Positions 4,652 through 16,725 of a DNA stretch of 41,068 nt are shown here, piece by piece (position 1 is the first letter of the stretch; the number at the start of each line of letters is the position of its first letter). Position numbers and translations under genes: made by a program. The notes below the pieces were generated by a model. The model was not told the origin of the DNA. It did not search any database and saw nothing but the letters and a program-made list of their open reading frames with translations. The DNA comes from Candidatus Woesearchaeota archaeon (lineage in GTDB: Archaea > Nanobdellota > Nanobdellia > Pacearchaeales > GW2011-AR1): the NCBI GenBank assembly GCA_964615065.1, contig CAZTPM010000001.1, forward strand, positions 1-41,068, written 5' to 3'.

Positions 4652-6958
4652 ATGCGTGTTTTGTATATGAAGTTTAATCCAGATTCAAAATTATATTCTT
4701 ATGAAGTGCAGAGGGAGGCAGGTGAAGATGTTCTTTATATTAATTATCTTGGGGCACCATTTGTTCCGAGCTTGGCTGATTCTCCTGAAATTATGGAGAG
4801 AACAGTTGATTCTTTAATTGAAAATCCAAATGTTTCAAGGATTGTTTTTGTCCAGCAAAAAAATTATAATTATGATTTTGAAGAAACTTCTTTTCTTTTA
4901 GAAATTGCACAGCTTTATGTTTATTTAGTGAAGCAGGAAAAAATTTTGTCGCAGGAAAAATTAGTTACAAATGTTGAAGGTGTTTTTTCAAAAAGGTATA
5001 ACCAGCTTTTTTCATTTTTACTTCTGTTAAAACAAGATCCTGTTTCTGCTTATTTTGAATTAAAAAAAATTATAATTGAATCTAAAATAAATTTAGACAA
5101 GATAAGTCCAGATAGAAGGACAGATTTTATGAGTTATGCGCACCTTCTTGAGAAAATTTTTAATTTGTTTGTAAAAACAAAAATTATTCAAAAAGCAAAA
5201 CCTTTTTTGGCAAATTATTCTAAAGGGAATCGGGAAATTTATTATAAATTATTTAGGCCAGATGTCATACCAAATTTTACTTTTACTCGTTTGGTTTCTG
5301 ATTTGCCTGAAGACGCAGAAATTATTGACCAGTATGAAATTTCAAATAGCGACTATGATATTTCGAATGTTACTATTTTGAAAAAAAAGAATGATGCAAA
5401 ATTTATTTATCACCTGATGCCCCCTGAAAATTCTTTGAGCGAAGATCATAACATGCTTTTAAATTTAGCAAGAAGTGTTTTGGTTGAGCACCAGCCCCAA
5501 GCAGAAGAATTTACAGATACAGAAAGGACAAGGCAAGTTTTTTTTAATATTTCAAAGGATTTATTGCAAGACCTTGCCCAGACAAAACAAATTAGTTTAA
5601 GTTATTCTGGTTTGAATAAATTAGCAACTATTTTAGTTAGGCATACAATTGGTTTTGGATTGATTGAAGTTTTGTTACAAGACAAAAAACTTCAGGATAT
5701 TTCTTTGAATGCACCTATTCCTTTGATACCTATTTTTTTAAAGCATCAGGATTTTGATGAATGTTCTTCAAATATCTTACCGAGTCAAGAAGATGTTGAT
5801 TCTTGGGCTGCAAAGTTTAGGATGATTTCTGGTCGGCCTCTTGATGAAGCAAATCCGATTTTGGATACCCAGTTAGAAATTGGAAAAATTAGAGCACGAA
5901 TAGCGATTATTCAGGCACCCTTATCTCCTGATGGTTTGGCCTATTCAATTAGAAGGCACAGAGAAGATCCTTGGACACTTCCTCTTTTTGTTCAGAATAA
6001 AATGTTAAATCCTTTTGCAGCTGGTTTGTTGAGTTTTTTAATTGATGGTTCACGAACCCTTTTAGTTGCAGGAACAAGAAGTTCAGGGAAAACCTCTTTG
6101 CTGGGGAGTTTAATGCAAGAAATTATTCCTAAGTTTAGAGTTATTGTTATTGAAGATTCATTGGAATTACCTGTTGAATCCCTGAGAAAGTTGAAATATG
6201 ATATTTTACGAATGAAAGTTCGTTCTGCTTTGTTGAAAACAACAACAGAAGTTTCTGCAGAGGACGGGATTAGAACAAGTTTGCGTTTAGGTGATAGTTG
6301 TTTAATAATTGGAGAAGTTAGAAGTGTGGAAGCAAAAGCACTTTACGAAGCAATGCGTATTGGTGCTTTAGCAAATGTTGTGGCAGGAACAATTCATGGT
6401 GCGTCGCCATATGGTGTTTTTGATAGGGTTGTAAATGATTTAGGGGTTCCTGCAACTTCTTTCAAAGCAACAGATATAATTGTTATTTGTAATCCTGTAA
6501 AATCAGCAGATGGTTTGCATTCATGGAAAAGGGTTGTTCAAATTTCAGAAGTCAGAAAACATTGGGAAAAAGATCCTTTGCTTGAACAGGGCTTTGTTGA
6601 TTTAATGAAATACAATGTTGAAAAAGACGAGCTTGAACCAACAGAGGACTTGAGGAATGGAGACAGCGAGATAATAAAAAATATTGCTTCAAGTATAAAA
6701 GGTTGGGCAGGAAATTGGGATGCTGTTTATGATAATATTTTACTTCGTGCAAAAATAAAAAAAGAACTTGTTGATATTGCTAAAAAAATTGGGGACAATA
6801 ATCTTTTGGAAGCTGAATTTAACGAGCAATCAAACAATGCTTTTCATCAAATTTCAGATGAAATTGTAAAAGAAGTCGGATTACCCTTAAGTGAGTTTGT
6901 TTTCCCTGAATGGAAAAAGTGGTTGGAAGAAGAGTTGAAGAAGAAGGAGAAATTGTAA
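4652..6958 (+). CDS. Type IV pilus/archaellum-type secretion ATPase (FlaI/ArlI/PilB/VirB11 superfamily) with long N-terminal extension
   Basis: Walker A GTRSSGKTSLLGS, Walker B-like RVIVIEDSLEL, IIGEVRS box and GTIHGAS His box. Alternative start at ATG 4667. Confidence 0.8.
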   Translation: MRVLYMKFNPDSKLYSYEVQREAGEDVLYINYLGAPFVPSLADSPEIMERTVDSLIENPNVSRIVFVQQKNYNYDFEETSFLLEIAQLYVYLVKQEKILSQEKLVTNVEGVFSKRYNQLFSFLLLLKQDPVSAYFELKKIIIESKINLDKISPDRRTDFMSYAHLLEKIFNLFVKTKIIQKAKPFLANYSKGNREIYYKLFRPDVIPNFTFTRLVSDLPEDAEIIDQYEISNSDYDISNVTILKKKNDAKFIYHLMPPENSLSEDHNMLLNLARSVLVEHQPQAEEFTDTERTRQVFFNISKDLLQDLAQTKQISLSYSGLNKLATILVRHTIGFGLIEVLLQDKKLQDISLNAPIPLIPIFLKHQDFDECSSNILPSQEDVDSWAAKFRMISGRPLDEANPILDTQLEIGKIRARIAIIQAPLSPDGLAYSIRRHREDPWTLPLFVQNKMLNPFAAGLLSFLIDGSRTLLVAGTRSSGKTSLLGSLMQEIIPKFRVIVIEDSLELPVESLRKLKYDILRMKVRSALLKTTTEVSAEDGIRTSLRLGDSCLIIGEVRSVEAKALYEAMRIGALANVVAGTIHGASPYGVFDRVVNDLGVPATSFKATDIIVICNPVKSADGLHSWKRVVQISEVRKHWEKDPLLEQGFVDLMKYNVEKDELEPTEDLRNGDSEIIKNIASSIKGWAGNWDAVYDNILLRAKIKKELVDIAKKIGDNNLLEAEFNEQSNNAFHQISDEIVKEVGLPLSEFVFPEWKKWLEEELKKKEKL

Positions 6959-7010
6959 AATGAGAATAAAGAAGGGAAGATTTTTAAAAGTTCTAATGTG
7001 TTAAATTGAT

Positions 7011-9758
7011 ATGGTGAATTTATCAGAAAAAGAAACTAGAAAGAAAATTATAGACCCAATTTTAGAAAGAACTGGATGGAAGAAAGAATATATTAAAGAA
7101 GAAATTAATTCTGTGAAATCTAATTTCGGAACTAAAAAATTTGTTTTTTTTAAGAAAGATAATATAGAGGTCGGAGATAGATTTATTGATTATCTTCTTT
7201 TGGATGAAGATAATTCTCCTTTAGCTATTATTGAAGCAAAGAAAACATCGATAAGTGTTGAAAAGGGAGAAATTCAATCTAGAACCTATCGAGAAGATAT
7301 TGAGAAACAAACAAAAAAAAGAATCCCTATTTTTTTAACAAATGGGAAACAATGGTATTATGTTGACGAGAAAGATAGAAGAAGACAAGTTCCCCTTCCA
7401 TTTGAACAAAAAGATTTGCATAGGAGAGTTCATCTTTTTGAAAGAGAGCGAGATCCAACTAAAGTAAAGATTAAACCAGAGATTGTGGATAGAGATAGAA
7501 GTATAGAAGCAGTAAAGGTTATTTTAGAACATCTCGAAAAAGGAAATAGGTCCGCACTAATTAATATGGCCACAGGAACGGGGAAGACAAGAGTCGCTAT
7601 GGCAATTATAGACGTATTAATGAGATCAAATTCTGTTAGAAATGTTTTATTTATTGTAGATAGAATTTCTTTATCGAATCAAGCTAAAGAAAATGGGTTT
7701 AAAGAATTTTTTCCAGGAGAGCCTGTTTGTGAATTAAATGTTGAAGGATTTTCTGAAAGTGCTAGGCTTTATGTTTCAACCATTCAAACCTTAATGAGTG
7801 ATAAAAAGCCAAGAGGAAAATTTTATGAAAAATTTGGAATAGGCGCTTTTGATTTAATTGTTTATGATGAAGCCCATCGTTCTTATTATGATAAAAATAA
7901 TGATGTCTTAAAATATTTTGATGCTATCAAACTGGGTTTAACTGCAACCCCTTCAAAAAAAGAAGGGAAAGATACTTTTGAATTATTTGGTTGTGAAGAT
8001 AAAGAACCAACATATAAATATGATTATGATTCTGCTGTTGATGATGAAGTTCTAGCTCCTTATTCTGCAGAGGTCATTGAGACTAAGATTTTATCATTAG
8101 GGATAGAAGGAAAGAAATTAAGCAAAGAATTAAGATTTCAATTGGAAAAACAAGAAGAGAACCCCTATGATTTTCAAACTCCTGGAGCAAGATTTGAAAA
8201 ATTGTTTACAGATTCAAGAACAAATGAATTAATTGTTAGAGAGTTTATTGATAGGTGCTATAAAACAGATGATAGGGTTCCATGTAAGACTATCTTCTTT
8301 TGTGCGAGTGTTAAGCATGCTGAATCTTTAAAAAATATCTTTGATAGGCTTTATCCTAATTTAGCTAGAGAAGTAAGAGTTATTACTTCAGACAGAACCA
8401 GATATATGGATGAAGTTAGAAGATTCAAAAGAAACTCTACTCCGAGAATTGCTTTATCTGTCGGAGTTTTAGATACAGGTATTGATATTCCTGAAATTAT
8501 GAATTTGGTTTTTGTTAAACCTGTTTTTTCTTATATAAGATTCTGGCAAATGCTTGGAAGAGGAACTAGAAATTTAGAAACATGTAAGCATAAGGATTGG
8601 TTGCCTCATAAAGATGGAGTAGCTGTTAAAGATAATTTTCTTATTTTAGATTTTAAATTTGGAGAGCATTCAAATGTAGAGTTTCATGATTTAGATAGGA
8701 CAAGAGAAAAGTCCAAATTAATCGACGCTAAAACAAGAATCTTCTTAGAGCAGGTTGATTTGCTTGAAAAAGATTTAAAGGAAAATGAGAAGGAAGTTAT
8801 TGAAAAGGCGATTATAGAAACTGTGAGAAGTATTGACATTGATTCTCCTCTTGTTTTAGAAAAGAAAAATATAATCAAAAAAGTTATTTCTAAAAAATTT
8901 GATTTGAAAGAGCATGTCAAAGAATTGAGGGAAGAAATTGCTCCTTTACTTATTTATTCTAAATCTGAAAATTCAAAAGTTTATGCATTTATTGGAAAAT
9001 GTGTTAAGTTGTTTGACGCTATTAAAGAAGACTATAAGGATAAGATTTGGAAGATTGAAGAGTTTGTTAAAGAAAGAGTTGAGAATGTTTGGGAGAGAAG
9101 TTTGGAAGTGGTTAGAGAGAAAGATGAGCAAATAAAAAAAGTTTTGGGAGATGAATTTTGGCAAGACATAACTTTTGAAGATGTTGATTTCTTAATTAGA
9201 GAAATTGCTTCTTTAATGATTTATTATGAAATCTATGGAAAGAAGATGTTGAGGATTGATGCTCCTGATGTTGTTATTAATGTTGAAAAATTTGAGATGA
9301 AAGTTAAAGAAAATCCTAATTTTGAATATTTCTTAAATAGCAATCCTTTAATTAAAAAAATTAAAGAAAGTAAAGGAGTTACATCTAGAGAATTGCTTGA
9401 AATTGAAAAGAAACTTTCAAGTTTAAATTCTGCTTGGACAATTGAAAATATTCAAAATATTAGAAAAATAGATTTTGTATTATTTTTAAGACAGCTTTTA
9501 CAGGTAATTGATTTGCCTGACCCTCAAGAAATGATTAAGCAAGAATTTGATAAGTTTGTGATTAGCAGGAATGAGCATTATAATTCAGAGCAATTGAAAT
9601 TTCTGAGATTATTAAAACAGGTTTTTGTAAGAGCAAAGCATATTGAATTAAAGGATTTTGCAAAGCATCCTTTGACAGAAGAAAGGCCCTTGGATTTGTT
9701 TGAAAAAAAGCAGTTGATTGAGATTGTTGATAAGTGTAATAAGTTGAGGTGGCGGTGA
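7011..9758 (+). CDS. hsdR: Type I restriction enzyme R subunit (COG4096/EcoEI-like)
   Basis: HsdR_N-like N-terminus EKETRKKIIDPILERTGW. Helicase motifs MATGTGKTRVA (I), VYDEAHRS (II, DEAH), GLTATP (III) and QMLGRGTR (VI). Long helical C-terminal tail. Confidence 0.85.
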   Translation: MVNLSEKETRKKIIDPILERTGWKKEYIKEEINSVKSNFGTKKFVFFKKDNIEVGDRFIDYLLLDEDNSPLAIIEAKKTSISVEKGEIQSRTYREDIEKQTKKRIPIFLTNGKQWYYVDEKDRRRQVPLPFEQKDLHRRVHLFERERDPTKVKIKPEIVDRDRSIEAVKVILEHLEKGNRSALINMATGTGKTRVAMAIIDVLMRSNSVRNVLFIVDRISLSNQAKENGFKEFFPGEPVCELNVEGFSESARLYVSTIQTLMSDKKPRGKFYEKFGIGAFDLIVYDEAHRSYYDKNNDVLKYFDAIKLGLTATPSKKEGKDTFELFGCEDKEPTYKYDYDSAVDDEVLAPYSAEVIETKILSLGIEGKKLSKELRFQLEKQEENPYDFQTPGARFEKLFTDSRTNELIVREFIDRCYKTDDRVPCKTIFFCASVKHAESLKNIFDRLYPNLAREVRVITSDRTRYMDEVRRFKRNSTPRIALSVGVLDTGIDIPEIMNLVFVKPVFSYIRFWQMLGRGTRNLETCKHKDWLPHKDGVAVKDNFLILDFKFGEHSNVEFHDLDRTREKSKLIDAKTRIFLEQVDLLEKDLKENEKEVIEKAIIETVRSIDIDSPLVLEKKNIIKKVISKKFDLKEHVKELREEIAPLLIYSKSENSKVYAFIGKCVKLFDAIKEDYKDKIWKIEEFVKERVENVWERSLEVVREKDEQIKKVLGDEFWQDITFEDVDFLIREIASLMIYYEIYGKKMLRIDAPDVVINVEKFEMKVKENPNFEYFLNSNPLIKKIKESKGVTSRELLEIEKKLSSLNSAWTIENIQNIRKIDFVLFLRQLLQVIDLPDPQEMIKQEFDKFVISRNEHYNSEQLKFLRLLKQVFVRAKHIELKDFAKHPLTEERPLDLFEKKQLIEIVDKCNKLRWR

Positions 9759-9856
9759 AATTCATAAAATACGCAATTTATGAAAAAAGGTAAATCTTTG
9801 GTTTACTAAAAAACACGAATAGGAAGTTTTAAATAACCTTTTTGAGTGAGGAATGT

Positions 9857-10702
9857 ATGACAATTCAAAAATCTCAGGAAGAAAGTGATAGCATGATAGT
9901 CTCTTCTAAGTTGCCGCGAGAAGAGTTGCTCAACTTTAAGAAATTGTGTGATTTCGAGGACAAGACCCCTAGCAAGAAAATTAGGGAACTTATCAATCTG
10001 GAAGTTGACGATAGATTTGGGGGGATGTATAAGAGCAGATACGATAAAGAAAAAATAAGGCAGTTTCAAATTAGTGCAATTAATGATTATAATTCTAGCC
10101 AAAGAGTGGGAGATATTGCTAAAGTTAATCTTGTTGAAAGAACAGATGGGAAGTTTACTCAAATTGGTTTAAGACCCTTGATTGATGAAGATATTTTCTT
10201 GCCAAAAGGAAAAGTATATCCTGTTCTTCCTTCAATAGGGATGGATGTTGCAAATGGCGAGATGAATTTTTTAATAGGTCATATTTTAAAGGATGAGAAA
10301 ATACAAAGAGTAAGCATTATCAAGGAAAAACTTAAAGAATTTCCCAGAGAGATAAATTTCAGTGAATCTACTATTTTAATTTCTAATGATTTTTTCGTAG
10401 AACTTGCAATGTCTCTTATGCATAGAATTAAGTATGAAAATAATAAAATGATTCTTGACTTTCATCATAAATTAATGTTTGTTCCTGGAGAAGCCATGAG
10501 AAATAAAATAATTATAATTGAGGATGGAGCAGTCTTATGGGCGAAAGAAAAATTTCATAATGGGTTTACGGGTAAGGATGAAAGTTTAAATATTTCTATT
10601 AAGCCAAAAATAGGCGGAAAAGTAGATATTACTGTGAGAAGTGTTAATCGAATTAAAGCTCTCTACCCTGAGATGATTAAAATTTTGGAGGTTGGAGAAT
10701 GA
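9857..10702 (+). CDS. Ribbon-helix-helix (CopG/Arc-like) N-terminal domain protein with about 220-aa uncharacterised C-terminal domain
   Basis: The track ORF starts at TTG 9842. ATG 9857 is preceded by GTGAGGA. The segment MIVSSKLPREELLNFKKLCDFEDKTPSKKIRELI fits a beta-strand plus two-helix RHH pattern. I do not recognise the rest. Confidence 0.45.
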   Translation: MTIQKSQEESDSMIVSSKLPREELLNFKKLCDFEDKTPSKKIRELINLEVDDRFGGMYKSRYDKEKIRQFQISAINDYNSSQRVGDIAKVNLVERTDGKFTQIGLRPLIDEDIFLPKGKVYPVLPSIGMDVANGEMNFLIGHILKDEKIQRVSIIKEKLKEFPREINFSESTILISNDFFVELAMSLMHRIKYENNKMILDFHHKLMFVPGEAMRNKIIIIEDGAVLWAKEKFHNGFTGKDESLNISIKPKIGGKVDITVRSVNRIKALYPEMIKILEVGE

Positions 10703-11160
10703 AACAATTTGATTATTATATCTTTATTGACTATTCTGTAAATGTTATTGGATATATAATCCTTGAAAATAAAAAACTCTTTGAATTAATTCCTTTGATT
10801 TCTAAATTTGCACATTATAAGAATTTGAAGCACAAGAATACTTATATTCATTCTATTAAAAAAATAATTGAGAAGAATAATGTCTTAAGTTTTTTTGAAG
10901 GGTATAAAATCAGAGAAATGAGGCAGAACATAGAAATTTATATGAATGTTTTTGATTTTATCAAGAAGCATGATAATTGTATAATTTTTGTTTCAATAGA
11001 TGACAATGAATATTCTAACTTTAGGAAATTTGTCAATATTGTCGATGGAAGTAAAACAGTTATTAAAATAGAGAGTAAATTAATTAAGAATACTCCTGAA
11101 TACAGAGCAAGTCTTGTTTTGGATACTTTACTAAATATTGAGAGATTAAAAAATGGTTGA
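10699..11160 (+). CDS. Small (153 aa) hypothetical protein with nuclease-like acidic pattern (PIN-like or RNase H/YqgF-like); candidate toxin partner of the upstream RHH protein
   Basis: ATGA overlap with the upstream gene. N-terminal YYIFIDYS (D11) strand, IIFVSIDDNE (D101/D102), NIVDGS (D116) and LVLDTLL (D142). Fold assignment is by eye only. Confidence 0.35.
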   Translation: MKQFDYYIFIDYSVNVIGYIILENKKLFELIPLISKFAHYKNLKHKNTYIHSIKKIIEKNNVLSFFEGYKIREMRQNIEIYMNVFDFIKKHDNCIIFVSIDDNEYSNFRKFVNIVDGSKTVIKIESKLIKNTPEYRASLVLDTLLNIERLKNG

Positions 11161-11173
11161 AATAAAAATAAAA

Positions 11174-11258
11174 TGTAGGGTAAGGGCGTCCGTCAATCCT
11201 ACTCCCCATACCAACGCAAAGCGTATATGGCTTTCGTCAGGTCGCTTTCCCCTGCATG
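11174..11258. ncRNA. Isolated GC-rich (about 54% by hand count) structured intergenic element; candidate small RNA or recombination/regulatory site
   Basis: Imperfect 15-nt closing inverted repeat TGTAGGGTAAGGGCG / CGCTTTCCCCTGCA. It encloses the hairpin CCATA-CCA-ACGC-AAA-GCGT-A-TATGG. No ORF. Composition differs sharply from the flanks. Confidence 0.3.
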
Positions 11259-11319
11259 ATTATTTAAATTGTTTAAATTATTTAAATGTTTTGGTTGTTG
11301 GGAAAGTGGAGGTTGGGAG

Positions 11320-12015
11320 ATGAGTGAAGAGGAATTATTAAGCCAATTAGAAAGAGTAAAAGAACTTAATTCAGATTTAAAGAAAGAACTTCAAAATAAT
11401 CTTGCTTCTTACGATGTAACTTTAAAAACTAGAAATTTAACAGAAGAAATTTTTGTTAAACTTAGAATTTGTTTAGATAAATTAATTTTTTATTATCTTA
11501 ATAAAAATCATTATCTTGTTGATTTATCTAAAGTTTCTTTTCCAATTTCTAAAACACAAAATGATTTTAATAGTGTTATAACTAATTATGGATTAAAAAA
11601 TATAAATCAAATTCATCCTCAATTTTTTAGTTTATTGTTTGATTCTCAACCATTTTCATCAAAAGAAAAAGAAATCTTAACTATCTTGCATGAAAAAGGG
11701 TCTAAGGAAAAACATCAATTTTTGATTAAAGAAAAAAAAGAAACAAACCATATCCGAACAACTTTTAAAAGCCAAAATGGAGAAATTAGTTGGAGCAAAC
11801 AAGGAGTTTTTTTTGGAGAAGGAGTTTCTATGAATGGGGTTCCAATTAATCCAGCTACACAAGAACCAGCGTTTATACCCCCGACACATAAATTAATTAG
11901 GCATTATGAAATATCTATAAAACTTGTAGATAAAAATATAGAAATAACTTTTTTATGTGATTCCTTAATTAAATTAGTTAAGGAGATAGTTACAAAAACA
12001 TTTAAATTAAAATGA
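11320..12015 (+). CDS. Hypothetical 231-aa protein translationally coupled to hsdS
   Basis: GGAGG at 11308-11312, 7 nt before ATG 11320 (the track start at TTG 11269 is less likely). ATGA overlap with hsdS at 12012. Coiled-coil N-terminus. I recognise no motif. Confidence 0.5.
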   Translation: MSEEELLSQLERVKELNSDLKKELQNNLASYDVTLKTRNLTEEIFVKLRICLDKLIFYYLNKNHYLVDLSKVSFPISKTQNDFNSVITNYGLKNINQIHPQFFSLLFDSQPFSSKEKEILTILHEKGSKEKHQFLIKEKKETNHIRTTFKSQNGEISWSKQGVFFGEGVSMNGVPINPATQEPAFIPPTHKLIRHYEISIKLVDKNIEITFLCDSLIKLVKEIVTKTFKLK

Positions 12016-13148
12016 AAATTAAACAATTACCTCAAGGATGGAAAGAAGTTGAACTTGGAGAACTTTTGAATTACGAGCAACCAACAAAATACATTGTTGA
12101 AGATACAAATTATAATGATAATTATAACACGCCAGTTTTGACAGCAGGCAAATCATTTATTTTAGGGCACACAGATGAAACAGATGGAATTTATAATAAA
12201 TTACCCGTAATAATTTTTGATGATTTTACTACAGATAATAAATTTGTGAATTTTAAATTTAAAGTAAAGTCTAGTGCCATGAAATTATTAACTCCAAAAA
12301 ATAAAGAAATTGATTTAAAATTTATCTTCTTATTAATGCAGACAATTAAAGTTAATTCAATAACCCATAAAAGATATTATCTATCTAAATACAGAAACAT
12401 CAAAATCCCCCTCCCCCCACCCCCCACTCAAAAACAAATAGTTTCAATTTTAGAAAAAGCCGAAAAACTAAAACAAAAAAGAGAACAAGCCGATAAATTA
12501 ATGGAGGATTATTTGAAAAGTGTTTTTAATGAAATGTTTTTGAAAAGAAAAGGAGAGTTTAAAATAAAAAAATTAGTAGATATAACTAAAAAGATAACTG
12601 ATGGAAAGCATGGAGATTGCGAGAATGAAGAAAATTCAGGATATTATTTTATTAGTGCAAAAGATATTTTTAAGGGGGAAGTTCATTATGAAAATTCTAG
12701 ACAAATAAAAAAAGAAGGATATTTAGAAGTCAATAAAAGAGTAAATCTTGAAATAAAAGATGTTTTGATTACAAATAGTGGAACAATTGGAAAAACGGCA
12801 ATAATGAATAATAGAGAGAATGTGGATAAAACAACATTTCAAAAAAGTGTCGCTATAATAAAACCAAATAAAAAATTAATACAATCTATTTATTTAAAAA
12901 ATTTTTTAGATACAATCATAATTAATTTAATGAGCACTTCTTCAGGATCTTCTCAAAAAAATCTTTTATTAAAAGATATAAGAAATATCAAAATCCCCCT
13001 CCCGCCTCTTGCTCTTCAAAAAAAATTTGCTTCTATTGTTGAGCGGGTTGAAAAATTAAAAGAAAAACAAAAACAATCTAAAGAAGAAATAAGTCAGATG
13101 TTTGATGTGCTGATGCAGAAGGCGTTTAAGGGGGCGTTGATGAAATGA
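12012..13148 (+). CDS. hsdS: Type I R-M specificity subunit
   Basis: Two target-recognition halves, each followed by a conserved helix: IKIPLPPPPTQKQIVSILEKAEKLKQKREQ and IKIPLPPLALQKKFASIVERVEKLKEKQKQ. Confidence 0.85.
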   Translation: MKIKQLPQGWKEVELGELLNYEQPTKYIVEDTNYNDNYNTPVLTAGKSFILGHTDETDGIYNKLPVIIFDDFTTDNKFVNFKFKVKSSAMKLLTPKNKEIDLKFIFLLMQTIKVNSITHKRYYLSKYRNIKIPLPPPPTQKQIVSILEKAEKLKQKREQADKLMEDYLKSVFNEMFLKRKGEFKIKKLVDITKKITDGKHGDCENEENSGYYFISAKDIFKGEVHYENSRQIKKEGYLEVNKRVNLEIKDVLITNSGTIGKTAIMNNRENVDKTTFQKSVAIIKPNKKLIQSIYLKNFLDTIIINLMSTSSGSSQKNLLLKDIRNIKIPLPPLALQKKFASIVERVEKLKEKQKQSKEEISQMFDVLMQKAFKGALMK

Positions 13149-13570
13149 AGTTTAATAAAAACGACTTTATGTGGATATTTATAGTATTGGCGATTATAAT
13201 TCTTGTAGGACAAATAATTTCTTTAGTATTTTTATTTAAGATTCCTTCTAAAATTGAAAGCAATGTTGATAAAATAGAACAATCAGCTAGTAAATTAGAT
13301 TCTAAACTGAATACCTTAGACAACCTAAACAATAAGATCTCAAATATAGAAACTAAAATAATTGAATTATCAACTAAATACCCCCCTAACCAAACAATTA
13401 ATATTAATAATATGAATCAGCAAGAATTAAATCGCGCAATCAATAATGCAATTGATTTAAAGTTTAATAATATTTCTGAGAAGATTCAAATTAATTTTAT
13501 TTTAAATATAATTTTTGGGTCATTATTATCAATTGGTTTTATAATCTATTTATGGGGGAGGAAGAGATGA
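13145..13570 (+). CDS. Small bitopic membrane protein with central coiled coil, unknown function
   Basis: ATGA overlap with hsdS. N-terminal TM WIFIVLAIIILVGQIISLVFLF, heptad-like KIESNVDKIEQSASKLDSKLNTLDNLNNKISNIETKIIEL, and C-terminal TM ILNIIFGSLLSIGFIIYLW. Confidence 0.5.
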   Translation: MKFNKNDFMWIFIVLAIIILVGQIISLVFLFKIPSKIESNVDKIEQSASKLDSKLNTLDNLNNKISNIETKIIELSTKYPPNQTININNMNQQELNRAINNAIDLKFNNISEKIQINFILNIIFGSLLSIGFIIYLWGRKR

Positions 13571-14010
13571 ACAATAGAGGCCAAATCCCTTATATGAAAG
13601 AGATTTTTGCCATCATAGTTTTACTAGCCTTAATCCCTGTATTCACATCTTTATTTAATCAAAACAGTCCTACTTGTGATTGTTCATCATATCAAAATCA
13701 ATTAAATAATTGTAATCAAGAACTCGCAAATCCAAAAGTAATTTATATTAATAATACTATTGAAGTTCCTGTTATTCAAACTATTGAAAAGGAAGTCTAT
13801 AAAGATACTGAAATTGAAAAAGTGATCCTCTCTCTTTCGTTAATAATTTCTTTGTCATTAACAATACTCTCTTTTAAAATAAAATTGCCTAGAAGATTAG
13901 AAGAAAGATTAGATAAATTAGAAGATACAATCACTTTAATTAAATATGGCTCTTTAATTTTATCAATACTAATCTTTATTAAATTGGCGATCATCTTTAA
14001 TTTAACATAA
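13567..14010 (+). CDS. Small polytopic membrane protein with CDC..C motif, unknown function
   Basis: GGAGG at 13556-13560 before ATG 13567, which forms an ATGA overlap with the upstream stop (the track start at 13552 is also possible). About three hydrophobic segments. Stop TAA at 14008-14010 lies 1 nt before the hsdM ATG at 14012. Confidence 0.45.
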   Translation: MNNRGQIPYMKEIFAIIVLLALIPVFTSLFNQNSPTCDCSSYQNQLNNCNQELANPKVIYINNTIEVPVIQTIEKEVYKDTEIEKVILSLSLIISLSLTILSFKIKLPRRLEERLDKLEDTITLIKYGSLILSILIFIKLAIIFNLT

Positions 14011-14011
14011 A

Positions 14012-15493
14012 ATGCTACACACAGAACTCAAATCACAAATAAACAAACTATGGGATAAGTTTTGGTCTGGTGGAATCTCTAATCCTCTTCAGGCAATTGA
14101 ACAAATATCTTTCTTGATTTTCATGAAAAGATTTGAAGATATGGATGTTCGAAGAGAACAAGAGGCAAGTTTAACAGAAGAAGAATTTATATCCATGTTT
14201 AAAAAACATGAAAATTGTCGTTGGAGTGTTTGGAGTGAATATAGTGCCGATAAGATTTTAGACCATGCAAGAGATGTTGTATTCCCTTTTATGAGAAATT
14301 TAGGGGATGGAGATTCTTTTTCAAAATATATGAATAGTGCTAATTTTGAAATTCCCACAGCATCATTACTTATAGAGGGTGTTAAGATAATTAACGATAT
14401 GCACATTAAAGAACAAAACCAAGATGCTCAGGGAGATATGTATGAATATTTATTAAGTGAATTGCAAACAGCTGGAAAAAATGGGCAATTCAGAACACCA
14501 AGACATATAATTAAAATGATGGTTGAATTAACTAAACCACAATACGGGGATTTAATTTTAGATCCTGCCTGCGGAACAGCAGGTTTTTTAATAAATGCTT
14601 ATGAATATATCTTAAAACAAAATACTTCTAAAGACCTAATAAAAAAAGATGAAGAAGGAAATGAATATAATTTCAAGGCAGATAAATTAAACTCTAAGCA
14701 GAAACAAATTCTTGATGAAGAAAGCTTATATGGTTTTGATATTGACCAAACCATGACAAGAATAGCTTTGATGAATTTAATGATGCATGGAATAAGCAAA
14801 CCAAATTTAGAACAATTAAATACTCTTTCAAAAAGATATAATCAAGATAATACTTATGATTTAATCTTAGCAAATCCCCCTTTCAAAGGTTCTATTGATG
14901 AATCAGAAAGCAGTGATAATCTTACAATAAAAAGCAAAAAAACAGAATTATTATTTTTAGAATTAATGTATAATTCCTTAACAAATGGGGGAAGATGTGC
15001 AGTTATTGTTCCAGATGGGGTTTTGTTTGGTAATTCAAAAGCCCATAAATTAATTAGGAAATTACTTTTAGAAGATTGTAGATTAGATGCTATAATAAAA
15101 ATGCCTTCTGGAGTTTTCAAACCTTATGCTGGAGTTTCTACAGCTGTTTTATTTTTCACAAAAGGAGAGCCAACAAAAAAAGTTTGGTTTTATGATATGC
15201 AAAATGATGGTTTTAGTTTGGATGATAAAAGAACAAAAATAGAAGGAAGTAATCTCCCAGACATAATTGAAAGATTCAAAAAAAGAAAGGAAGAATCTAA
15301 TGAAGATAGAAAAAAGAAACACTTCTTTGTGCCAATTGAAGAAATAAAAGAAAATGATTATGACCTAAGCATTTCTAAATACAAGGAAATAGAATATGAA
15401 GAAAAAGTATATGAAAAACCAGAGATTATAAAAAAGAAAACTCTAAAAATTGAGGAAGAGATTGTTAAGGGATTGAAAGAGTTGAAGTTGTAA
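14012..15493 (+). CDS. hsdM: Type I R-M N6-adenine DNA methyltransferase subunit
   Basis: HsdM_N-like LWDKFWSGGISNPLQAIEQISFLIFMKR. SAM motif I DPACGTAGFL. Motif IV LANPPFKGS. Confidence 0.9.
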   Translation: MLHTELKSQINKLWDKFWSGGISNPLQAIEQISFLIFMKRFEDMDVRREQEASLTEEEFISMFKKHENCRWSVWSEYSADKILDHARDVVFPFMRNLGDGDSFSKYMNSANFEIPTASLLIEGVKIINDMHIKEQNQDAQGDMYEYLLSELQTAGKNGQFRTPRHIIKMMVELTKPQYGDLILDPACGTAGFLINAYEYILKQNTSKDLIKKDEEGNEYNFKADKLNSKQKQILDEESLYGFDIDQTMTRIALMNLMMHGISKPNLEQLNTLSKRYNQDNTYDLILANPPFKGSIDESESSDNLTIKSKKTELLFLELMYNSLTNGGRCAVIVPDGVLFGNSKAHKLIRKLLLEDCRLDAIIKMPSGVFKPYAGVSTAVLFFTKGEPTKKVWFYDMQNDGFSLDDKRTKIEGSNLPDIIERFKKRKEESNEDRKKKHFFVPIEEIKENDYDLSISKYKEIEYEEKVYEKPEIIKKKTLKIEEEIVKGLKELKL

Positions 15494-15536
15494 ACCAAAA
15501 ACATTTGCAAACACTTGTTATAATATTATTACATTG

Positions 15537-15557
15537 AATTCTCCAAACATTTATTAA
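15537..15557 (+). repeat. 21-nt perfect direct repeat AATTCTCCAAACATTTATTAA, copy 1 (TATA-like core)
   Basis: Identical 21-mer at 16667-16687. The flanks are also similar over about 35 nt. Lies 48 nt upstream of ATG 15605. Confidence 0.7.
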
Positions 15558-15571
15558 ACCCTTTCCAACAA

Positions 15572-15603
15572 AACATTTATAAATGTTATAACAATGTTAT
15601 AAC
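15572..15603 (+). promoter_or_regulatory. Candidate operator: 16-nt perfect palindrome AACATTTATAAATGTT overlapping tandem ATGTTATAAC x2, directly before the AbrB-domain gene
   Basis: Palindrome at 15572-15587. ATGTTATAAC at 15583-15592 and 15594-15603. A related TTGTTATAAT at about 15515. Confidence 0.4.
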
Positions 15604-15604
15604 T

Positions 15605-16369
15605 ATGGAACAAGAATTAATTAAACCGATTGTTAAGGTGGGGAATAGTGCAGGAGTAGTTTTGCCTAAGGAGTGGCTTGGTGGGAAAGCAAAAATAAAA
15701 CTTGTTAAAAAACCAATTAATATAAAGAAAGATGTTTTAGAGATTCTTGCAGCGTATTTATATGATGTTCAGGGAATTTATTTAGTTGGCAGTTATGCTC
15801 GTGAAGAACAAACAGATAAAAGTGATGTTGATGTTTTAGTTATAACTAATAAAACAAATAAAAAAATTGAACAAGGAAAGTATAATCTTATTTTGATTTC
15901 TAAAGAACAAGTTGAAAATTCTTTAAGAAATAATGTTTTGCCCCTTCTTCCTATGTTAAAAGAGGCAAAGGTTGTTTTAAATGCTGAATTAATTGTGGGA
16001 TATAAAAAAACTGGTTTGACAAAAAGAAATTTAAAATTTCATATAGAAACAACAAAGTCTGCTATGAGGGTGGATAAAGAATCCATTGAAATTAAAGAGG
16101 AAGAGAATGAAAGCATTTCAGATAATATTATGTATTCTTTGGTTTTAAGATTACGTGAATTATATATTGTAGATTGCTTAATAAAAAATAAAAAATTAAC
16201 TACAAAAGGATTTTTGGAATTAGTTAAAACAATTGTTGGTTCTATTGAACCTTATAATTCTTATCTTCGCTCAAAAAATAAAAACAAGGTCAAGAAAGTT
16301 GTGTCTGTTAATGAAGCAAGAAAAATTTATGATTATATAATTAAGAATATAGATAAGCAAATAAAATGA
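15605..16369 (+). CDS. Fusion protein: SpoVT/AbrB-like DNA-binding domain plus minimal nucleotidyltransferase (MNT) domain plus helical C-terminus with an RNxxxH (HEPN-like) motif
   Basis: AbrB-type VKVGNSAGVVLPKEW. MNT signature GSYAREEQTDKSDVDVLVI (GS-x10-DxD). RNLKFH at residues 141-146 (nt 16025-16042). Confidence 0.6.
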   Translation: MEQELIKPIVKVGNSAGVVLPKEWLGGKAKIKLVKKPINIKKDVLEILAAYLYDVQGIYLVGSYAREEQTDKSDVDVLVITNKTNKKIEQGKYNLILISKEQVENSLRNNVLPLLPMLKEAKVVLNAELIVGYKKTGLTKRNLKFHIETTKSAMRVDKESIEIKEEENESISDNIMYSLVLRLRELYIVDCLIKNKKLTTKGFLELVKTIVGSIEPYNSYLRSKNKNKVKKVVSVNEARKIYDYIIKNIDKQIK

Positions 16370-16542
16370 AGGAAAATAAACGACTAAAGAAGATTGAAAG
16401 TTTAAATGAACAAAAAGAGAAGCACAAAGATAAAATAAAAAGTTATGCTGGAAAAGATTATGCTTTGCTTGAGTACTGGAAAAAAGAAATTGAGAGATTT
16501 GAAGATGAGACTGAAGAAGAAAAAGACAAGTTGAAAAAGTAA
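16366..16542 (+). CDS. Small (58 aa) charged coiled-coil protein; not in the ORF track (below its length cutoff)
   Basis: ATGA overlap with the upstream stop. Hand translation: MKENKRLKKIESLNEQKEKHKDKIKSYAGKDYALLEYWKKEIERFEDETEEEKDKLKK. Confidence 0.35.
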   Translation: MKENKRLKKIESLNEQKEKHKDKIKSYAGKDYALLEYWKKEIERFEDETEEEKDKLKK

Positions 16543-16666
16543 TTTTAAGGATTTGATAAAATCTTTTTTCCTGAATATTTTAATTTTTAGAAATCCTCTT
16601 TTATGCTCTCATTGGGTTAGGAATTTGTCTGAATTTTACTTGAATATCTAATTAATATAACACTTA

Positions 16667-16687
16667 AATTCTCCAAACATTTATTAA
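16667..16687 (+). repeat. 21-nt perfect direct repeat AATTCTCCAAACATTTATTAA, copy 2
   Basis: Identical to 15537-15557. Lies 39 nt upstream of ATG 16726, which has GAGGAG at about 16714. Confidence 0.7.
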
Positions 16688-16725
16688 TTCTTTTTAATTA
16701 GATTGTTAATAAAAGAGGAGAGATT

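What the first reader, a model, noticed from the sequence alone, without database searches (positions are those of the whole stretch)
9857..11160. RHH-domain protein plus small nuclease-like protein inserted between hsdR and hsdS (oversized VapBC-like pair?)
Two genes joined by an ATGA overlap separate hsdR from the rest of the R-M system. The first has an RHH-like N-terminus followed by about 220 aa of unknown sequence, far larger than a normal VapB antitoxin. The second is 153 aa with acidic residues spaced like a PIN or RNase H/YqgF nuclease (D11, D101/D102, D116, D142). The order mimics RHH-antitoxin/PIN-toxin modules, but the large extra domain suggests a sensor or effector fusion. A GC-rich structured element follows immediately at 11174-11258.
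Basis: partly seen in the sequence, partly recalled or inferred. Interest (0 to 1): 0.65.

Follow-up and report, generated by a model that had tools for sequence, protein, structure and literature searches.

The report
Capsid-fold protein, nuclease and antisense sRNA
Between the genes of a restriction-modification system in a tiny (DPANN) archaeon lie not one toxin-antitoxin pair but two separate, undescribed modules: a DNA-binding protein fused to a virus-capsid-like fold, and a small RNase H-like nuclease that always comes with its own structured small RNA gene on the opposite strand.

Summary
ORF-A (9857-10702, 281 aa) and ORF-B (10699-11160, 153 aa) overlap by ATGA between hsdR and hsdS, and a structured element follows.

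The VapBC-like reading is only partly right.

ORF-A:
- It has a weakly supported RHH N-terminus.
- Its large "unknown" domain models confidently as an HK97 capsid/encapsulin fold.
- In 10 of 11 related loci this RHH plus HK97-like unit follows hsdR of one orthologous DPANN Type I R-M operon.
- It heads a variable slot that elsewhere carries Kiwa, Shedu or an OLD-like nuclease.
- None of the 11 loci has ORF-B.

ORF-B:
- It models as an RNase H-like fold with invariant D11, D101 and D142.
- It belongs to a closed DPANN-only family and is sometimes multi-copy.
- Every complete copy is followed by the structured element.

The structured element:
- It shows strong covariation.
- It is most likely a separate sRNA gene on the minus strand, convergent with ORF-B.
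- Supporting this are a BRE/TATA promoter at fixed distance, an oligo-T tract after it, and a wobble-pair bias.
- It also occurs without ORF-B.

No Pfam, NCBIfam, PADLOC, Rfam or literature match exists for any of the three.

My best guess is that ORF-B plus the sRNA is a toxin/antisense-RNA-like cargo module. ORF-A would be a regulator or sensor belonging to the R-M operon. Both functions are inferred, not shown.

The parts
7011..9758 (+). hsdR of a Type I R-M operon. It has orthologues at about 69% identity in at least 16 related DPANN loci.
   Evidence: Pfam ResIII, HSDR_N and EcoEI_R_C. tblastn matches to the related loci.
9857..10702 (+). ORF-A, 281 aa. It is an RHH-like N-terminus fused to an HK97-fold (capsid/encapsulin-like) domain.
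   Evidence: There are no hits in Pfam, NCBIfam, PADLOC or PDB sequences. The family has 119 members, in long and short forms. The AF2 model has pLDDT 86. Foldseek gives 179 PDB hits and 188 viral hits at E <= 1e-3; every listed PDB hit and nearly all listed viral hits are HK97-fold.
9893..10021 (+). RHH-like segment of ORF-A, about aa 13-55 (IVSSKLPREELLNFKKLCDFEDKTPSKKIRELINLEV).
   Evidence: There are sub-threshold but repeated hits to CopG-like, RHH_9 and Arc-like families across the family. It is 35-48% identical to free-standing 56-82-aa RHH genes at the same operon position. The AF2 monomer model is low-confidence here and predicts helix.
10034..10699 (+). HK97-fold domain of ORF-A, about aa 60-281.
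   Evidence: pLDDT is about 90-95 over this stretch. Top PDB matches include the P. furiosus VLP 2e0z (E 2.5e-8), T. maritima encapsulin 3dkt, M. xanthus EncA and phage major capsid proteins. About 85 family members consist of this domain alone.
10699..11160 (+). ORF-B, 153 aa, an RNase H-like fold nuclease candidate.
   Evidence: The AF2 model has pLDDT 92.3 and topology b1-b2-a-a-b3-a-b4-a-b5-a. The Foldseek top matches are archaeal RNase HII (E 2.5e-5, TMq 0.52). D5, D11, S13, H39, D101, E125, E134, Y135, D142 and R149 are invariant. The family is closed: an exhaustive profile search gives 105 representatives (E-value up to 0.001) with no match to any other family.
11161..11173 (-). A-rich spacer on the plus strand, which reads as an oligo-U/T tract immediately after the sRNA on the minus strand. 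It is a candidate archaeal terminator.
   Evidence: A run of four or more T lies within 30 nt after the RNA on the minus strand in 51 of 66 copies, against 13 of 66 on the plus strand.
11174..11256 (-). Conserved structured sRNA. It has P1, P2, an invariant internal loop and a variable hairpin P3. The strand assignment is inferred.
   Evidence: Covariance model R1 scores 86.2 bits here. The structure is 85.6% paired on one set and 85.8% on another, with 20-21 pairs showing compensatory change and 0 of 500 shuffles reaching the covariation score. Strand: A.C/C.A cells outnumber G.U/U.G cells 90 to 19 and 145 to 34 in the well-supported helices. There is no Rfam match on either strand.
11281..11294 (-). 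BRE/TATA-like box. The plus strand reads TTTAAATGTTTTGG, which is CCAAAACATTTAAA on the minus strand. Its TATA end lies 24 nt upstream of the sRNA on the minus strand.
   Evidence: The box sits 22-29 nt from the RNA in all 65 copies examined, including copies whose plus-strand downstream neighbour is a minus-strand gene and copies without ORF-B.
11320..12015 (+). ORF-C, 231 aa, a further unknown gene in the slot. Its stop overlaps the hsdS start.
   Evidence: There are no hits in any library or in any fetched locus.
12012..13148 (+). hsdS.
   Evidence: Pfam Methylase_S.
14012..15493 (+). hsdM.
   Evidence: Pfam N6_Mtase and HsdM_N. It is 77-81% identical to hsdM in related loci.

Best explanation
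The two overlapping genes are not a VapBC-like pair. They are two independent modules that sit next to each other in the variable cargo slot of a DPANN Type I R-M operon.

Module 1: ORF-A.
- It is a ribbon-helix-helix DNA-binding segment fused to an HK97-fold (capsid/encapsulin-like) domain.
- The same RHH, either as a separate small gene or fused, is the first gene of the slot after hsdR in orthologous operons.
- It is followed either by the HK97-like protein or directly by ORF-B, and then by interchangeable defence genes.
- Inferred: the RHH controls transcription of the slot. The capsid-like domain modulates it by self-assembly or by binding viral capsid-assembly components.

Module 2: ORF-B plus the sRNA.
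- ORF-B is an RNase H-fold, metal-dependent nuclease.
- It is never found without a convergent sRNA gene of about 85 nt that has its own promoter and lies 10-25 nt past its stop.
- ORF-B has no terminator of its own before the sRNA gene, so its mRNA should read through it. The two transcripts would then be complementary.
- Inferred: the sRNA restrains ORF-B expression or activity, like the antitoxin of a type I (or type III) toxin-antitoxin or abortive-infection module. Orphan sRNA copies would be antitoxin-only remnants.

What is shown: gene order, protein folds, conservation, RNA covariation, and the co-occurrence statistics.
What is inferred: the strand of the RNA, nuclease activity, toxicity, and the regulatory role of ORF-A.
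For: Not a pair:
- None of 11 other ORF-A-family loci carries ORF-B, including a homologue 74% identical to ORF-A.
- ORF-A has 119 homologues and ORF-B more than 317.
- Most ORF-B copies abut unrelated upstream genes such as gyrB.

ORF-A:
- The HK97 fold comes from a confident model.
- In 10 of 11 other ORF-A-family loci the order is hsdR, RHH, HK97-like gene, variable genes, hsdS; one search confirms it in 8 loci that hold a long hsdR match.
- The exception is L064, where the gene lies beside a Type II methyltransferase and an HNH gene.
- Slot contents elsewhere are KwaA plus KwaB, SduA, and an OLD-TOPRIM/GajA-like protein.
- The setting is chromosomal, on a 909-kb contig.

ORF-B:
- RNase H-like model with invariant acidic residues.
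- Every complete ORF-B in the 61 genome loci has the RNA directly after its stop.
- RNA variants track ORF-B clades.

sRNA:
- Covariation.
- Minus-strand BRE/TATA box at a fixed 22-29 nt.
- Oligo-T after the RNA in 51 of 66 copies on the minus strand against 13 of 66 on the plus strand.
- Wobble bias of 90 to 19 and 145 to 34.
- At least 14 high-scoring RNA copies lack ORF-B and lie near HEPN, AbiEii, PIN and DUF2283 genes.

Other:
- Multi-copy occurrence and contig-end positions.
Against: - No experiment or transcriptome supports transcription of either strand.
- MFE does not distinguish the strands.
- A conserved G.U at alignment columns 11-94 and a G.U/U.G swap at columns 12-93 favour the plus strand.
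- The sRNA lies almost wholly outside the ORF, so classical antisense control of translation is not obvious.
- The invariant internal loop suggests protein binding rather than simple antisense pairing.
- Some orphan sRNAs sit upstream of same-strand genes and could be 5' leaders.
- RNase H-fold toxins paired with an sRNA are not a described TA class.
- The HK97 assignment rests on a predicted structure only. No capsid family is hit by sequence. TM-scores are about 0.5.
- RHH support is below threshold, and the monomer model predicts helix where the ribbon strand should be.
- A recurrent RHH-then-ORF-B arrangement (about 8 loci) leaves room for a type II-like role of the RHH.
Confidence: 0.55

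Rival explanations
1. This is an RHH-antitoxin/nuclease-toxin (type II, VapBC-like) pair. The RHH of ORF-A, or the small RHH elsewhere, binds and neutralises ORF-B and autoregulates the operon. The HK97 domain is an add-on.
For: - The two genes overlap by ATGA.
- Small RHH genes with acidic tails overlap the ORF-B start in L004, L007, L009, L026, L030, L070 and L158. In L001 a 138-aa RHH-like protein does the same. The RHH sequences differ between these loci.
- ORF-B has a nuclease fold.
Against: - Most ORF-B copies (about 85% of genome loci) have no RHH upstream and abut unrelated genes.
- The same RHH family precedes the HK97-like gene where ORF-B is absent, so it belongs to the operon or slot rather than to ORF-B.
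- No ORF-A homologue elsewhere is paired with ORF-B.
Confidence: 0.12
2. ORF-B and the sRNA form a ribonucleoprotein in which the RNA is a cofactor, scaffold or guide of the RNase H-fold nuclease. This would be a minimal analogue of TnpB/omega-RNA or Argonaute/guide systems, acting in defence or in mobility.
For: - ORF-B is always physically linked to the RNA, at a fixed distance and orientation.
- RNA type diverges together with protein clade.
- The invariant internal loop, with K-turn-like and loop-E-like motifs on the minus strand, suggests a protein-binding site. This is my reading; it was not tested with a tool.
Against: - No variable guide-like segment exists. The only variable part is a self-paired hairpin.
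- The RNA occurs without ORF-B in roughly a third of the pattern-found sites with room for the gene; at least 14 of them are high-scoring.
- A 153-aa protein has no extra nucleic-acid-binding domain.
- No relatives were found on viral contigs.
Confidence: 0.15
3. ORF-B is a selfish, homing-endonuclease-like or transposase-like gene that inserts next to a pre-existing multi-copy host sRNA gene. The sRNA is its landmark, not its partner.
For: - The ORF-B presence/absence boundary lies within 8 nt of the RNA end when L125 is compared with L153, L094 and L172.
- There is no nucleotide conservation upstream of the ORF-B start.
- ORF-B is multi-copy, is often at contig ends, and occurs in tandem RNA-ORF-B-RNA arrays.
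- The RNA exists on its own with its own promoter.
- The RNase H fold is the fold of DDE and DEDD transposases.
Against: - No terminal repeats or target duplications were seen.
- The protein is very small for a transposase, and no known homing endonuclease has this fold.
- The co-divergence of RNA and protein needs co-conversion to explain it.
- Only two internal-deletion derivatives were found (L061, L129).
Confidence: 0.13
4. ORF-A is simply the capsid gene of a decayed provirus or mobile island that carries the R-M system. It would have no role in the operon.
For: - A Phage_integrase gene (weak hit) lies upstream in L066, and a terminase gene plus AbiEii lie upstream in L067.
- The HK97 fold is that of tailed-virus capsids.
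Against: - The position is fixed between hsdR and hsdS, co-directional and often translationally coupled, in at least 10 loci with hsdR about 69% identical.
- No portal, protease or terminase gene is in the window or in the chromosomal L193 context.
- The family is under clear purifying selection, with 19 invariant residues.
- No family member was seen with a viral Pfam neighbour in the same operon.
Confidence: 0.05

Closest known systems
VapBC-type (type II) toxin-antitoxin modules, with an RHH or AbrB antitoxin and a PIN nuclease
   Same: The order is a small RHH gene followed by a nuclease of about 150 aa, with overlapping stop and start codons. They lie in defence and mobile regions and are multi-copy.
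   Different: The nuclease has an RNase H-like fold, not a PIN fold. The RHH is absent from most copies. Here the RHH is fused to a 220-aa capsid-fold domain. The constant partner is an RNA.
Type I toxin-antitoxin systems with convergent 3'-overlapping antisense sRNAs (B. subtilis txpA/RatA, bsrG/SR4) and type I systems with nuclease toxins (SymE/SymR, RalR/RalA). Cited from general knowledge.
   Same: A protein gene is paired with a convergent, separately promoted, structured sRNA at its 3' end. Orphan sRNA copies are tolerated, but the protein never occurs without the sRNA.
   Different: The toxin would be a 153-aa RNase H-fold enzyme rather than a membrane peptide. The sRNA lies almost entirely beyond the stop codon. 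To my knowledge no archaeal type I system has been characterised. Nothing was tested functionally.
Type III toxin-antitoxin systems (ToxIN, CptIN). Cited from general knowledge.
   Same: A structured RNA is genetically inseparable from a small nuclease, and the setting is defence-related.
   Different: In type III systems the RNA is a tandem repeat array upstream on the same strand and is processed by the toxin. Here it is a single copy, downstream and (inferred) on the opposite strand. The fold also differs from ToxN.
Encapsulins and HK97-type major capsid proteins
   Same: The predicted fold of ORF-A residues 60-281 matches encapsulins (2e0z, 3dkt, EncA) and phage major capsid proteins at E 1e-8 to 1e-5. 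The size of about 220 aa is close to a minimal HK97 domain.
   Different: There is no sequence-level match to any capsid or encapsulin family. No cargo enzyme gene with a targeting peptide is evident. The domain is fused to, or preceded by, an RHH DNA-binding domain. It sits inside a Type I R-M operon, and no other virion genes are present.
RNase HII and the RuvC/YqgF branch of the RNase H-like superfamily
   Same: The core topology matches, and the acidic residues lie at the end of beta1, after beta4 and in the C-terminal helix.
   Different: TM is only about 0.5. A two-helix insertion lies between beta2 and beta3. There is no DE pair on beta1 as in RNase HII. No sequence similarity is detectable. 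The genome has its own RNase HII elsewhere in at least one relative (L068).
Defence genes embedded in Type I R-M operons (PrrC in the prr/hsd locus, and immigration-control-region-type hotspots). Cited from general knowledge.
   Same: Unrelated defence genes are inserted between hsd genes. Here they include Kiwa, Shedu, an OLD-like protein, DUF4145, NOV_C and HEPN in slots between hsdR, hsdS and hsdM.
   Different: The slot is headed by a conserved RHH with or without an HK97-fold protein, which is not known for PrrC-type loci. The lineage is DPANN archaea.
TnpB/omega-RNA and IS110 bridge-RNA elements. Cited from general knowledge.
   Same: An RNase H-fold (RuvC-like) protein gene has a conserved structured RNA at its 3' end, and the element is multi-copy.
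   Different: The protein is 2-3 times smaller and lacks the other domains. There is no guide segment and no transposon ends. The RNA is probably on the other strand. There is no Pfam or Rfam match.

Membership tests
VapBC / type II TA (RHH antitoxin + PIN toxin) | The toxin has a PIN fold with four conserved acidic residues. | tested here: not met
   There is no Pfam PIN hit. The AF2 model is RNase H-like, and the top PDB matches are RNase HII with no PIN proteins among the best 50.
VapBC / type II TA (RHH antitoxin + PIN toxin) | The antitoxin and toxin genes are a conserved, co-inherited pair. | tested here: not met
   None of 11 other ORF-A-family loci has ORF-B. Only about 8 ORF-B loci have any RHH upstream.
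VapBC / type II TA (RHH antitoxin + PIN toxin) | The antitoxin N-terminus is an RHH DNA-binding domain. | tested here: inconclusive
   Hits are sub-threshold. They are CopG-like PHROG in 11 of 38 members (best E 0.0044), RHH_9 in 6 of 38 (0.0092), and CcdA/RepB-RCR_reg for the small homologues. A PDB profile search finds nothing. The monomer model has low confidence here.
VapBC / type II TA (RHH antitoxin + PIN toxin) | The toxin arrests growth and the antitoxin protein rescues it. | not testable with these tools
   This needs expression assays.
Type I TA (protein toxin + cis-antisense sRNA) | A separately transcribed sRNA is complementary to the toxin mRNA. | tested here: inconclusive
   A minus-strand BRE/TATA box lies at a fixed distance in 65 of 65 copies. 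There is an oligo-T bias and a wobble bias. No plus-strand T-run lies between the ORF-B stop and the RNA in the window. No transcript data are available, and MFE is neutral between the strands.
Type I TA (protein toxin + cis-antisense sRNA) | The toxin is never found without the antitoxin, while orphan antitoxins are tolerated. | tested here: met
   Every complete ORF-B in the 61 genome loci has the RNA. At least 14 high-scoring RNA copies have no ORF-B.
Type I TA (protein toxin + cis-antisense sRNA) | The protein is toxic and the RNA represses it. | not testable with these tools
   This needs genetics.
HK97-fold shell proteins (encapsulin / major capsid protein) | The protein has the HK97 fold (A-domain, P-domain with spine helix, E-loop). 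| tested here: met
   The predicted model has pLDDT of about 90-95 over residues 60-281. There are 179 PDB and 188 BFVD matches at E <= 1e-3, with probability 1.00 for the 50 listed from each library; every listed PDB match and nearly all listed viral matches are HK97-fold proteins. This rests on prediction only.
HK97-fold shell proteins (encapsulin / major capsid protein) | There is sequence membership of a capsid or encapsulin family. | tested here: not met
   No Pfam or PHROG capsid or encapsulin family is hit by any of 38 members at E <= 1. None of the 119 homologues carries a precomputed Pfam domain.
HK97-fold shell proteins (encapsulin / major capsid protein) | The protein assembles into closed icosahedral shells. 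For encapsulins, there is also an adjacent cargo gene with a targeting peptide. | not testable with these tools
   The neighbours are defence genes, not known encapsulin cargo. Assembly needs EM.
RNase H-like superfamily nuclease | The fold has a five-stranded mixed sheet, with carboxylates on beta1, after beta4 and in the C-terminal helix. | tested here: met
   Topology is and the Foldseek matches. D11 (beta1), D101 (after beta4) and D142 (last helix) are invariant.
Known RNA families (Rfam 15) | A covariance-model match at or near the gathering score. | tested here: not met
   Only a tRNA-Gln elsewhere in the window reaches the gathering score. The best hit in the region has E 0.98 and is far below threshold.
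Known defence systems (PADLOC) | An HMM match of ORF-A or ORF-B. | tested here: not met
   ORF-A has no hits. ORF-B has only short chance-level matches of 32-36 residues to an MTase_III model.

The most novel reading that the evidence does not exclude
Two readings remain open.

1. The RHH plus HK97-fold protein is a domesticated capsid protein that serves as the sensor and regulator of a modular immune locus. It would repress the cargo slot of the Type I R-M operon through its RHH. It would release or activate the downstream effector (Kiwa, Shedu, an OLD-like nuclease, or here ORF-B) when its capsid-like domain co-assembles with, or is titrated by, the capsid-assembly machinery of an infecting virus.

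2. Separately, ORF-B plus its K-turn-like sRNA would be a previously unknown class of RNA-controlled RNase H-fold effector, and the first archaeal type I-like toxin-antitoxin system.
Probability: 0.2. Interest if true: 0.92.

Novelty: new variant of a known kind. Interest (0 to 1): 0.74.

Why it matters
If the predictions hold, three undescribed components come to light in one 1.5-kb stretch.

1. A capsid-fold (HK97) protein family has been recruited into a restriction-modification operon and fused to a DNA-binding domain.
   - This would extend capsid domestication beyond encapsulins and gene-transfer agents into immunity or gene regulation.
   - It gives a concrete candidate for how defence "cargo slots" are controlled.

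2. A minimal RNase H-fold nuclease family is restricted to DPANN archaea.

3. A new, abundant structured sRNA family (more than 150 copies collected here) has clear covariation and its own promoter, and it is obligatorily linked to that nuclease.

DPANN genomes are tiny and poorly annotated, so a conserved, modular R-M-centred defence locus there is directly testable by heterologous expression. The work also shows that the Type I operon in this lineage has two variable slots carrying known systems (Kiwa, Shedu, an OLD-like nuclease, HEPN, NOV_C). These slots can be mined for further unknown systems.

Tried and rejected
- **Sequence searches.** ORF-A, ORF-B and ORF-C were searched against Pfam, NCBIfam, PADLOC, PHROGs and PDB sequences. 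Nothing significant was found.
- **Exhaustive profile search of ORF-B.** The search against 1.84 billion representatives found only the family itself. No bridge to PIN, RuvC, IS110 or DUF3800 exists.
- **Rfam.** Both strands were searched at the gathering threshold and at a permissive threshold. There was no family match.
- **Known RNA classes compared by eye.** I compared the RNA with hammerhead, hairpin, H/ACA, C/D-box and tRNA-like patterns. None fits. The CUGA and tandem G.A resemblance to a K-turn on the minus strand is only my reading.
- **Plus-strand 3'-UTR reading.** This was my first assumption. I dropped it as the favourite after the promoter, terminator and wobble counts, but it is not excluded.
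- **MFE comparison of strands.** It was uninformative: the plus strand was more stable in 35 of 61 copies, p = 0.37.
- **Insertion sequence with two ends.** There is no conservation upstream of the ORF-B start. Only two internal-deletion derivatives were found. No inverted or direct terminal repeats were noticed.
- **Viral origin of ORF-B.** A scan of IMG/VR found no relatives.
- **Provirus context for ORF-A in the window.** The neighbours are type IV pilus genes, a peptidase and an OB-fold protein, with no virion genes.
- **Raw metagenome pattern hits.** Some, such as L087 and L097, are chance matches. I kept only hits confirmed by the covariance model.
- **Literature.** Five full-text searches found no description of any of the three components.
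- **Not possible here.** Co-folding of ORF-A with ORF-B, and measuring the spatial clustering of the acidic residues, could not be done.
Full report
**1. Observation**

The window is AT-rich DNA whose homologues all come from DPANN archaea (Nanoarchaeota, Pacearchaeota, Woesearchaeota).
- hsdR is at 7011-9758, hsdS at 12012-13148 and hsdM at 14012-15493. All three are confirmed by Pfam.
- ORF-A runs from the ATG at 9857 to the stop at 10702 and encodes 281 aa.
- ORF-B runs from 10699 to 11160 and encodes 153 aa. It overlaps ORF-A by ATGA.
- A G+C-rich island follows at about 11174-11256. Its plus-strand fold scores z = -3.3.

**2. ORF-B and the structured element**

ORF-B has no hit in Pfam, NCBIfam, PADLOC, PHROGs or PDB sequences.
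- It has more than 317 homologues at 58-95% identity.
- An exhaustive profile search of 1.84 billion representatives returns only 105 proteins (E-value up to 0.001), none matching any other family. The family is therefore closed.
- D5, D11, S13, H39, D101, E125, E134, Y135, D142 and R149 are invariant in 30 members.
- The AlphaFold2 model is confident, with pLDDT 92.3. Its topology is b1-b2-(two helices)-b3-a-b4-a-b5-a.
- Foldseek places it in the RNase H-like superfamily. The best matches are archaeal RNase HII (E 2.5e-5, TMq about 0.52). Poxvirus resolvase and YqgF appear further down.
- It is a nuclease-type fold and not a PIN fold, with carboxylates where RNase H-like enzymes carry them.

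In 61 genome loci the gene is sometimes multi-copy, including tandem copies, and is often at contig ends.
- The conserved nucleotide block runs from the start codon to about 40 nt past the structured element, which is window 10685-11296.
- Nothing upstream is conserved, and the gene abuts unrelated genes such as gyrB.
- A scan of IMG/VR viral contigs found no relatives.

**3. The RNA**

Every complete ORF-B is followed within about 10-25 nt by the element.
- A hand-drawn structure (P1, P2, an invariant internal loop, a variable hairpin P3) is 85.6% paired on 61 sequences.
- Twenty-one of its 24 pairs show compensatory change, and 0 of 500 shuffles reach the covariation score.
- An independent set of 103 distinct metagenomic copies gives 85.8% paired and a covariation score of 0.377 against 0.155 for shuffles.
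- Rfam has no match on either strand.

Which strand carries the RNA? MFE is neutral between the strands. Three observations favour the minus strand, making the RNA convergent with ORF-B.
- (a) A box reading ACCGAAAnnTTTAAAT on the minus strand, which fits the archaeal BRE plus TATA pattern, lies 22-29 nt from the RNA in all 65 copies examined. This holds for copies followed by a minus-strand gene and for copies lacking ORF-B.
- (b) A T4+ run follows the RNA on the minus strand in 51 of 66 copies, at a median of 4 nt. On the plus strand the figure is 13 of 66.
- (c) In the helices with Watson-Crick covariation, A.C/C.A cells (which are G.U on the minus strand) outnumber G.U/U.G cells 90 to 19 in one set and 145 to 34 in the other.

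Against this, columns 11-94 hold a conserved G.U and columns 12-93 alternate between G.U and U.G on the plus strand. However, columns 12-93 are unpaired in about half of the sequences.

By eye, the invariant loop on the minus strand reads CUGACGAA opposite AGUAGGAUUGAC. It can be drawn as tandem sheared G.A pairs (K-turn-like) next to an AGUA/GAA loop-E-like motif. This is my inference and not a tool result.

In the window there is no plus-strand T-run between the ORF-B stop and the RNA. The ORF-B mRNA should therefore read through the sRNA gene and be complementary to the sRNA.

**4. The RNA also exists alone**

A metagenome scan with an RNA-only pattern was followed by covariance-model confirmation.
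- It finds 63 sites with a full ORF-B.
- At least 14 high-scoring RNAs (above 70 bits) have no ORF-B.
- These orphans lie next to genes that look like HEPN, AbiEii, DUF2283, PIN/DUF433 and NUDIX genes (read by eye).
- Comparing L125 with L153, L094 and L172 puts the ORF-B presence/absence boundary within 8 nt of the RNA end.
- RNA variants broadly track ORF-B clades.

The asymmetry is that the protein never occurs without the RNA, while the RNA often occurs without the protein. This fits a toxin with an RNA antitoxin. It also fits a selfish nuclease gene that lands beside a host sRNA gene, or a ribonucleoprotein. I rank these readings 0.35-0.4, 0.13 and 0.15 respectively within the overall account.

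**5. ORF-A**

ORF-A has no significant sequence-library hit (only a weak CopG-like PHROG match, E 0.085).
- The family has 119 members.
- About 28 are long forms with the N-terminal segment.
- About 85 are short forms of 212-230 aa that lack it.

The N-terminal segment has the RHH pattern, and support for it is weak but repeated.
- A CopG-like PHROG is hit by 11 of 38 members.
- Pfam RHH_9 is hit by 6 of 38 members.
- Small homologues hit CcdA and RepB-RCR_reg.
- The segment is 35-48% identical to free-standing 56-82-aa genes at the same operon position.

The RHH is therefore plausible but not proven.

The surprise is the rest of the protein.
- The model has overall pLDDT 86, and about 90-95 over residues 60-281.
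- Every PDB match listed is an HK97-fold protein. These include the P. furiosus VLP (2e0z), T. maritima and M. xanthus encapsulins, and phage capsids. There are 179 hits at E <= 1e-3.
- In the viral library there are 188 hits; of the 50 listed, nearly all that carry a name are major capsid proteins.
- No capsid family is hit by sequence, so this assignment rests on the predicted structure.

**6. Context of ORF-A**

In 10 of 11 other loci the order is hsdR, then the RHH (free or fused), then the HK97-like gene, then variable genes, then hsdS (hsdM is also in the 6 loci that reach that far). L195 starts just before the ORF-A gene, so its hsdR is not seen. These loci are L062, L063, L066-L069, L193, L194 and L195.
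- hsdR is about 69% identical across them, and hsdM is 77-81% identical in the closest loci (69-81% across those listed).
- One locus is a chromosomal site on a 909-kb contig.
- The exception, L064, lies beside a Type II methyltransferase and an HNH gene.

The variable genes include known defence genes.
- KwaA plus KwaB (Kiwa) in L066.
- SduA (Shedu) in L067.
- An OLD-TOPRIM/GajA-like protein in L068.
- A second variable slot lies between hsdS and hsdM.

None of these loci has ORF-B, including a locus whose ORF-A homologue is 74% identical.

Conversely, in about 7 hsdR loci the RHH is followed directly by ORF-B plus the sRNA with no HK97-like gene. The window alone has both.

A relative, L070, carries only a different 51-aa RHH, ORF-B and the sRNA. 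They lie at the same chromosomal site as the window's R-M cluster, between a pilus ATPase and its membrane partner.

**7. Interpretation**

- ORF-A belongs to the R-M operon and heads a defence-cargo slot.
- ORF-B plus the sRNA is one of the cargoes.

What works like a TA module is ORF-B with its RNA. The RHH may add transcriptional control. A type II-like role of the RHH towards ORF-B keeps about 0.12.

For ORF-A the most economical mechanism has two parts, and both are inferred.
- The RHH mediates operon or slot regulation.
- The oligomerising capsid-fold domain modulates that regulation.

The more exciting possibility is a capsid-mimic sensor of viral assembly. It is not excluded, and I give it about 0.2.

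**8. Novelty**

Five full-text searches found no description of any of the three components.
- Each component resembles a known kind: RNase H-like nucleases, antisense-RNA or TA modules, domesticated HK97 shells, and defence genes embedded in hsd operons.
- Each differs from its nearest kind in defining respects.
- I therefore rate the finding a new variant of a known kind, with a real chance that functional work would make it categorically new.

**9. Limits**

- All structures are predictions.
- No coordinates were available to measure the clustering of the acidic residues.
- No co-folding of ORF-A with ORF-B was possible.
- The strand of the RNA, nuclease activity and toxicity are all untested.
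- Annotation of the neighbours of orphan RNAs was done by eye.

Noticed in passing
window 6958-16726 (compare L070:4224-5645): The whole Type I R-M cluster, plus an AbrB-nucleotidyltransferase gene (15605-16369) and a 58-aa ORF (16366-16542), lies between a T2SSE pilus ATPase (4652-6958) and its 722-aa membrane partner (16726-18894). A relative with about 70% identical flanking genes has only a 51-aa RHH, ORF-B and the sRNA at that site. The site is therefore an insertion hotspot.
   Followed up: partly
window 11320-12015: ORF-C (231 aa) starts just after the sRNA promoter box, and its stop overlaps the hsdS start. It has no hit in Pfam, NCBIfam, PADLOC or PHROGs (beyond chance level) and no homologue in any of about 195 fetched loci.
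   Followed up: partly
window 13145-14010: Two small ORFs of 141 and 152 aa, which look like membrane or coiled-coil proteins from their sequence, fill a second variable slot between hsdS and hsdM. The 141-aa ORF is 71% identical to the gene at the same position in L062 and L063. Other operons carry NOV_C or HEPN genes there.
   Followed up: partly
window 15605-16542: A protein with an AbrB/MazE-like N-terminus fused to a minimal nucleotidyltransferase gives partial matches to MntA and to the Hailong HalB model. It is followed by an overlapping 58-aa Lys/Glu-rich ORF. This is probably another TA-like or defence module directly after hsdM.
   Followed up: no
L072:1-5447: A 2664-bp unit is repeated twice head to tail on one contig. 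The unit is ORF-B, a glycosyltransferase fragment, Fic, a 50-aa ORF, a Polbeta nucleotidyltransferase and DUF2283. The same genes are single-copy in L071 and L073. This is either a tandem duplication or an assembled circular element.
   Followed up: no
L002:5467-5672, L172:4197-4402, L123, L033/L146: There are tandem arrangements of the sRNA. In some, two different RNA variants lie back to back after one ORF-B. In others the order is RNA, ORF-B, RNA, ORF-B, RNA.
   Followed up: partly
L061:2122-2316 and L129:~4330-4520: Two loci keep only the first 23-24 codons of ORF-B, followed about 50 nt later by the sRNA. The same internal deletion derivative is seen twice.
   Followed up: partly
L004, L007, L026, L053, L020 (e.g. 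L007:4089-4726): A conserved pair of small genes (about 101-111 aa plus 118 aa, overlapping) lies upstream of ORF-B in five loci. In L004, L007 and L026 it sits between hsdR and the RHH. From its layout it looks like another TA pair. It was not annotated.
   Followed up: no
L137:~880-900, also L106, L112 and L139: Some ORF-B-less sRNA copies lie directly upstream of a gene on the same (minus) strand. In those places the RNA could act as a 5' leader rather than a free-standing sRNA.
   Followed up: no
L041 (JBBTVE010000009.1): One ORF-B plus sRNA copy sits on a 1.4-kb contig binned as a Patescibacteria genome. This is probably a binning error, but it could be a transfer.
   Followed up: no
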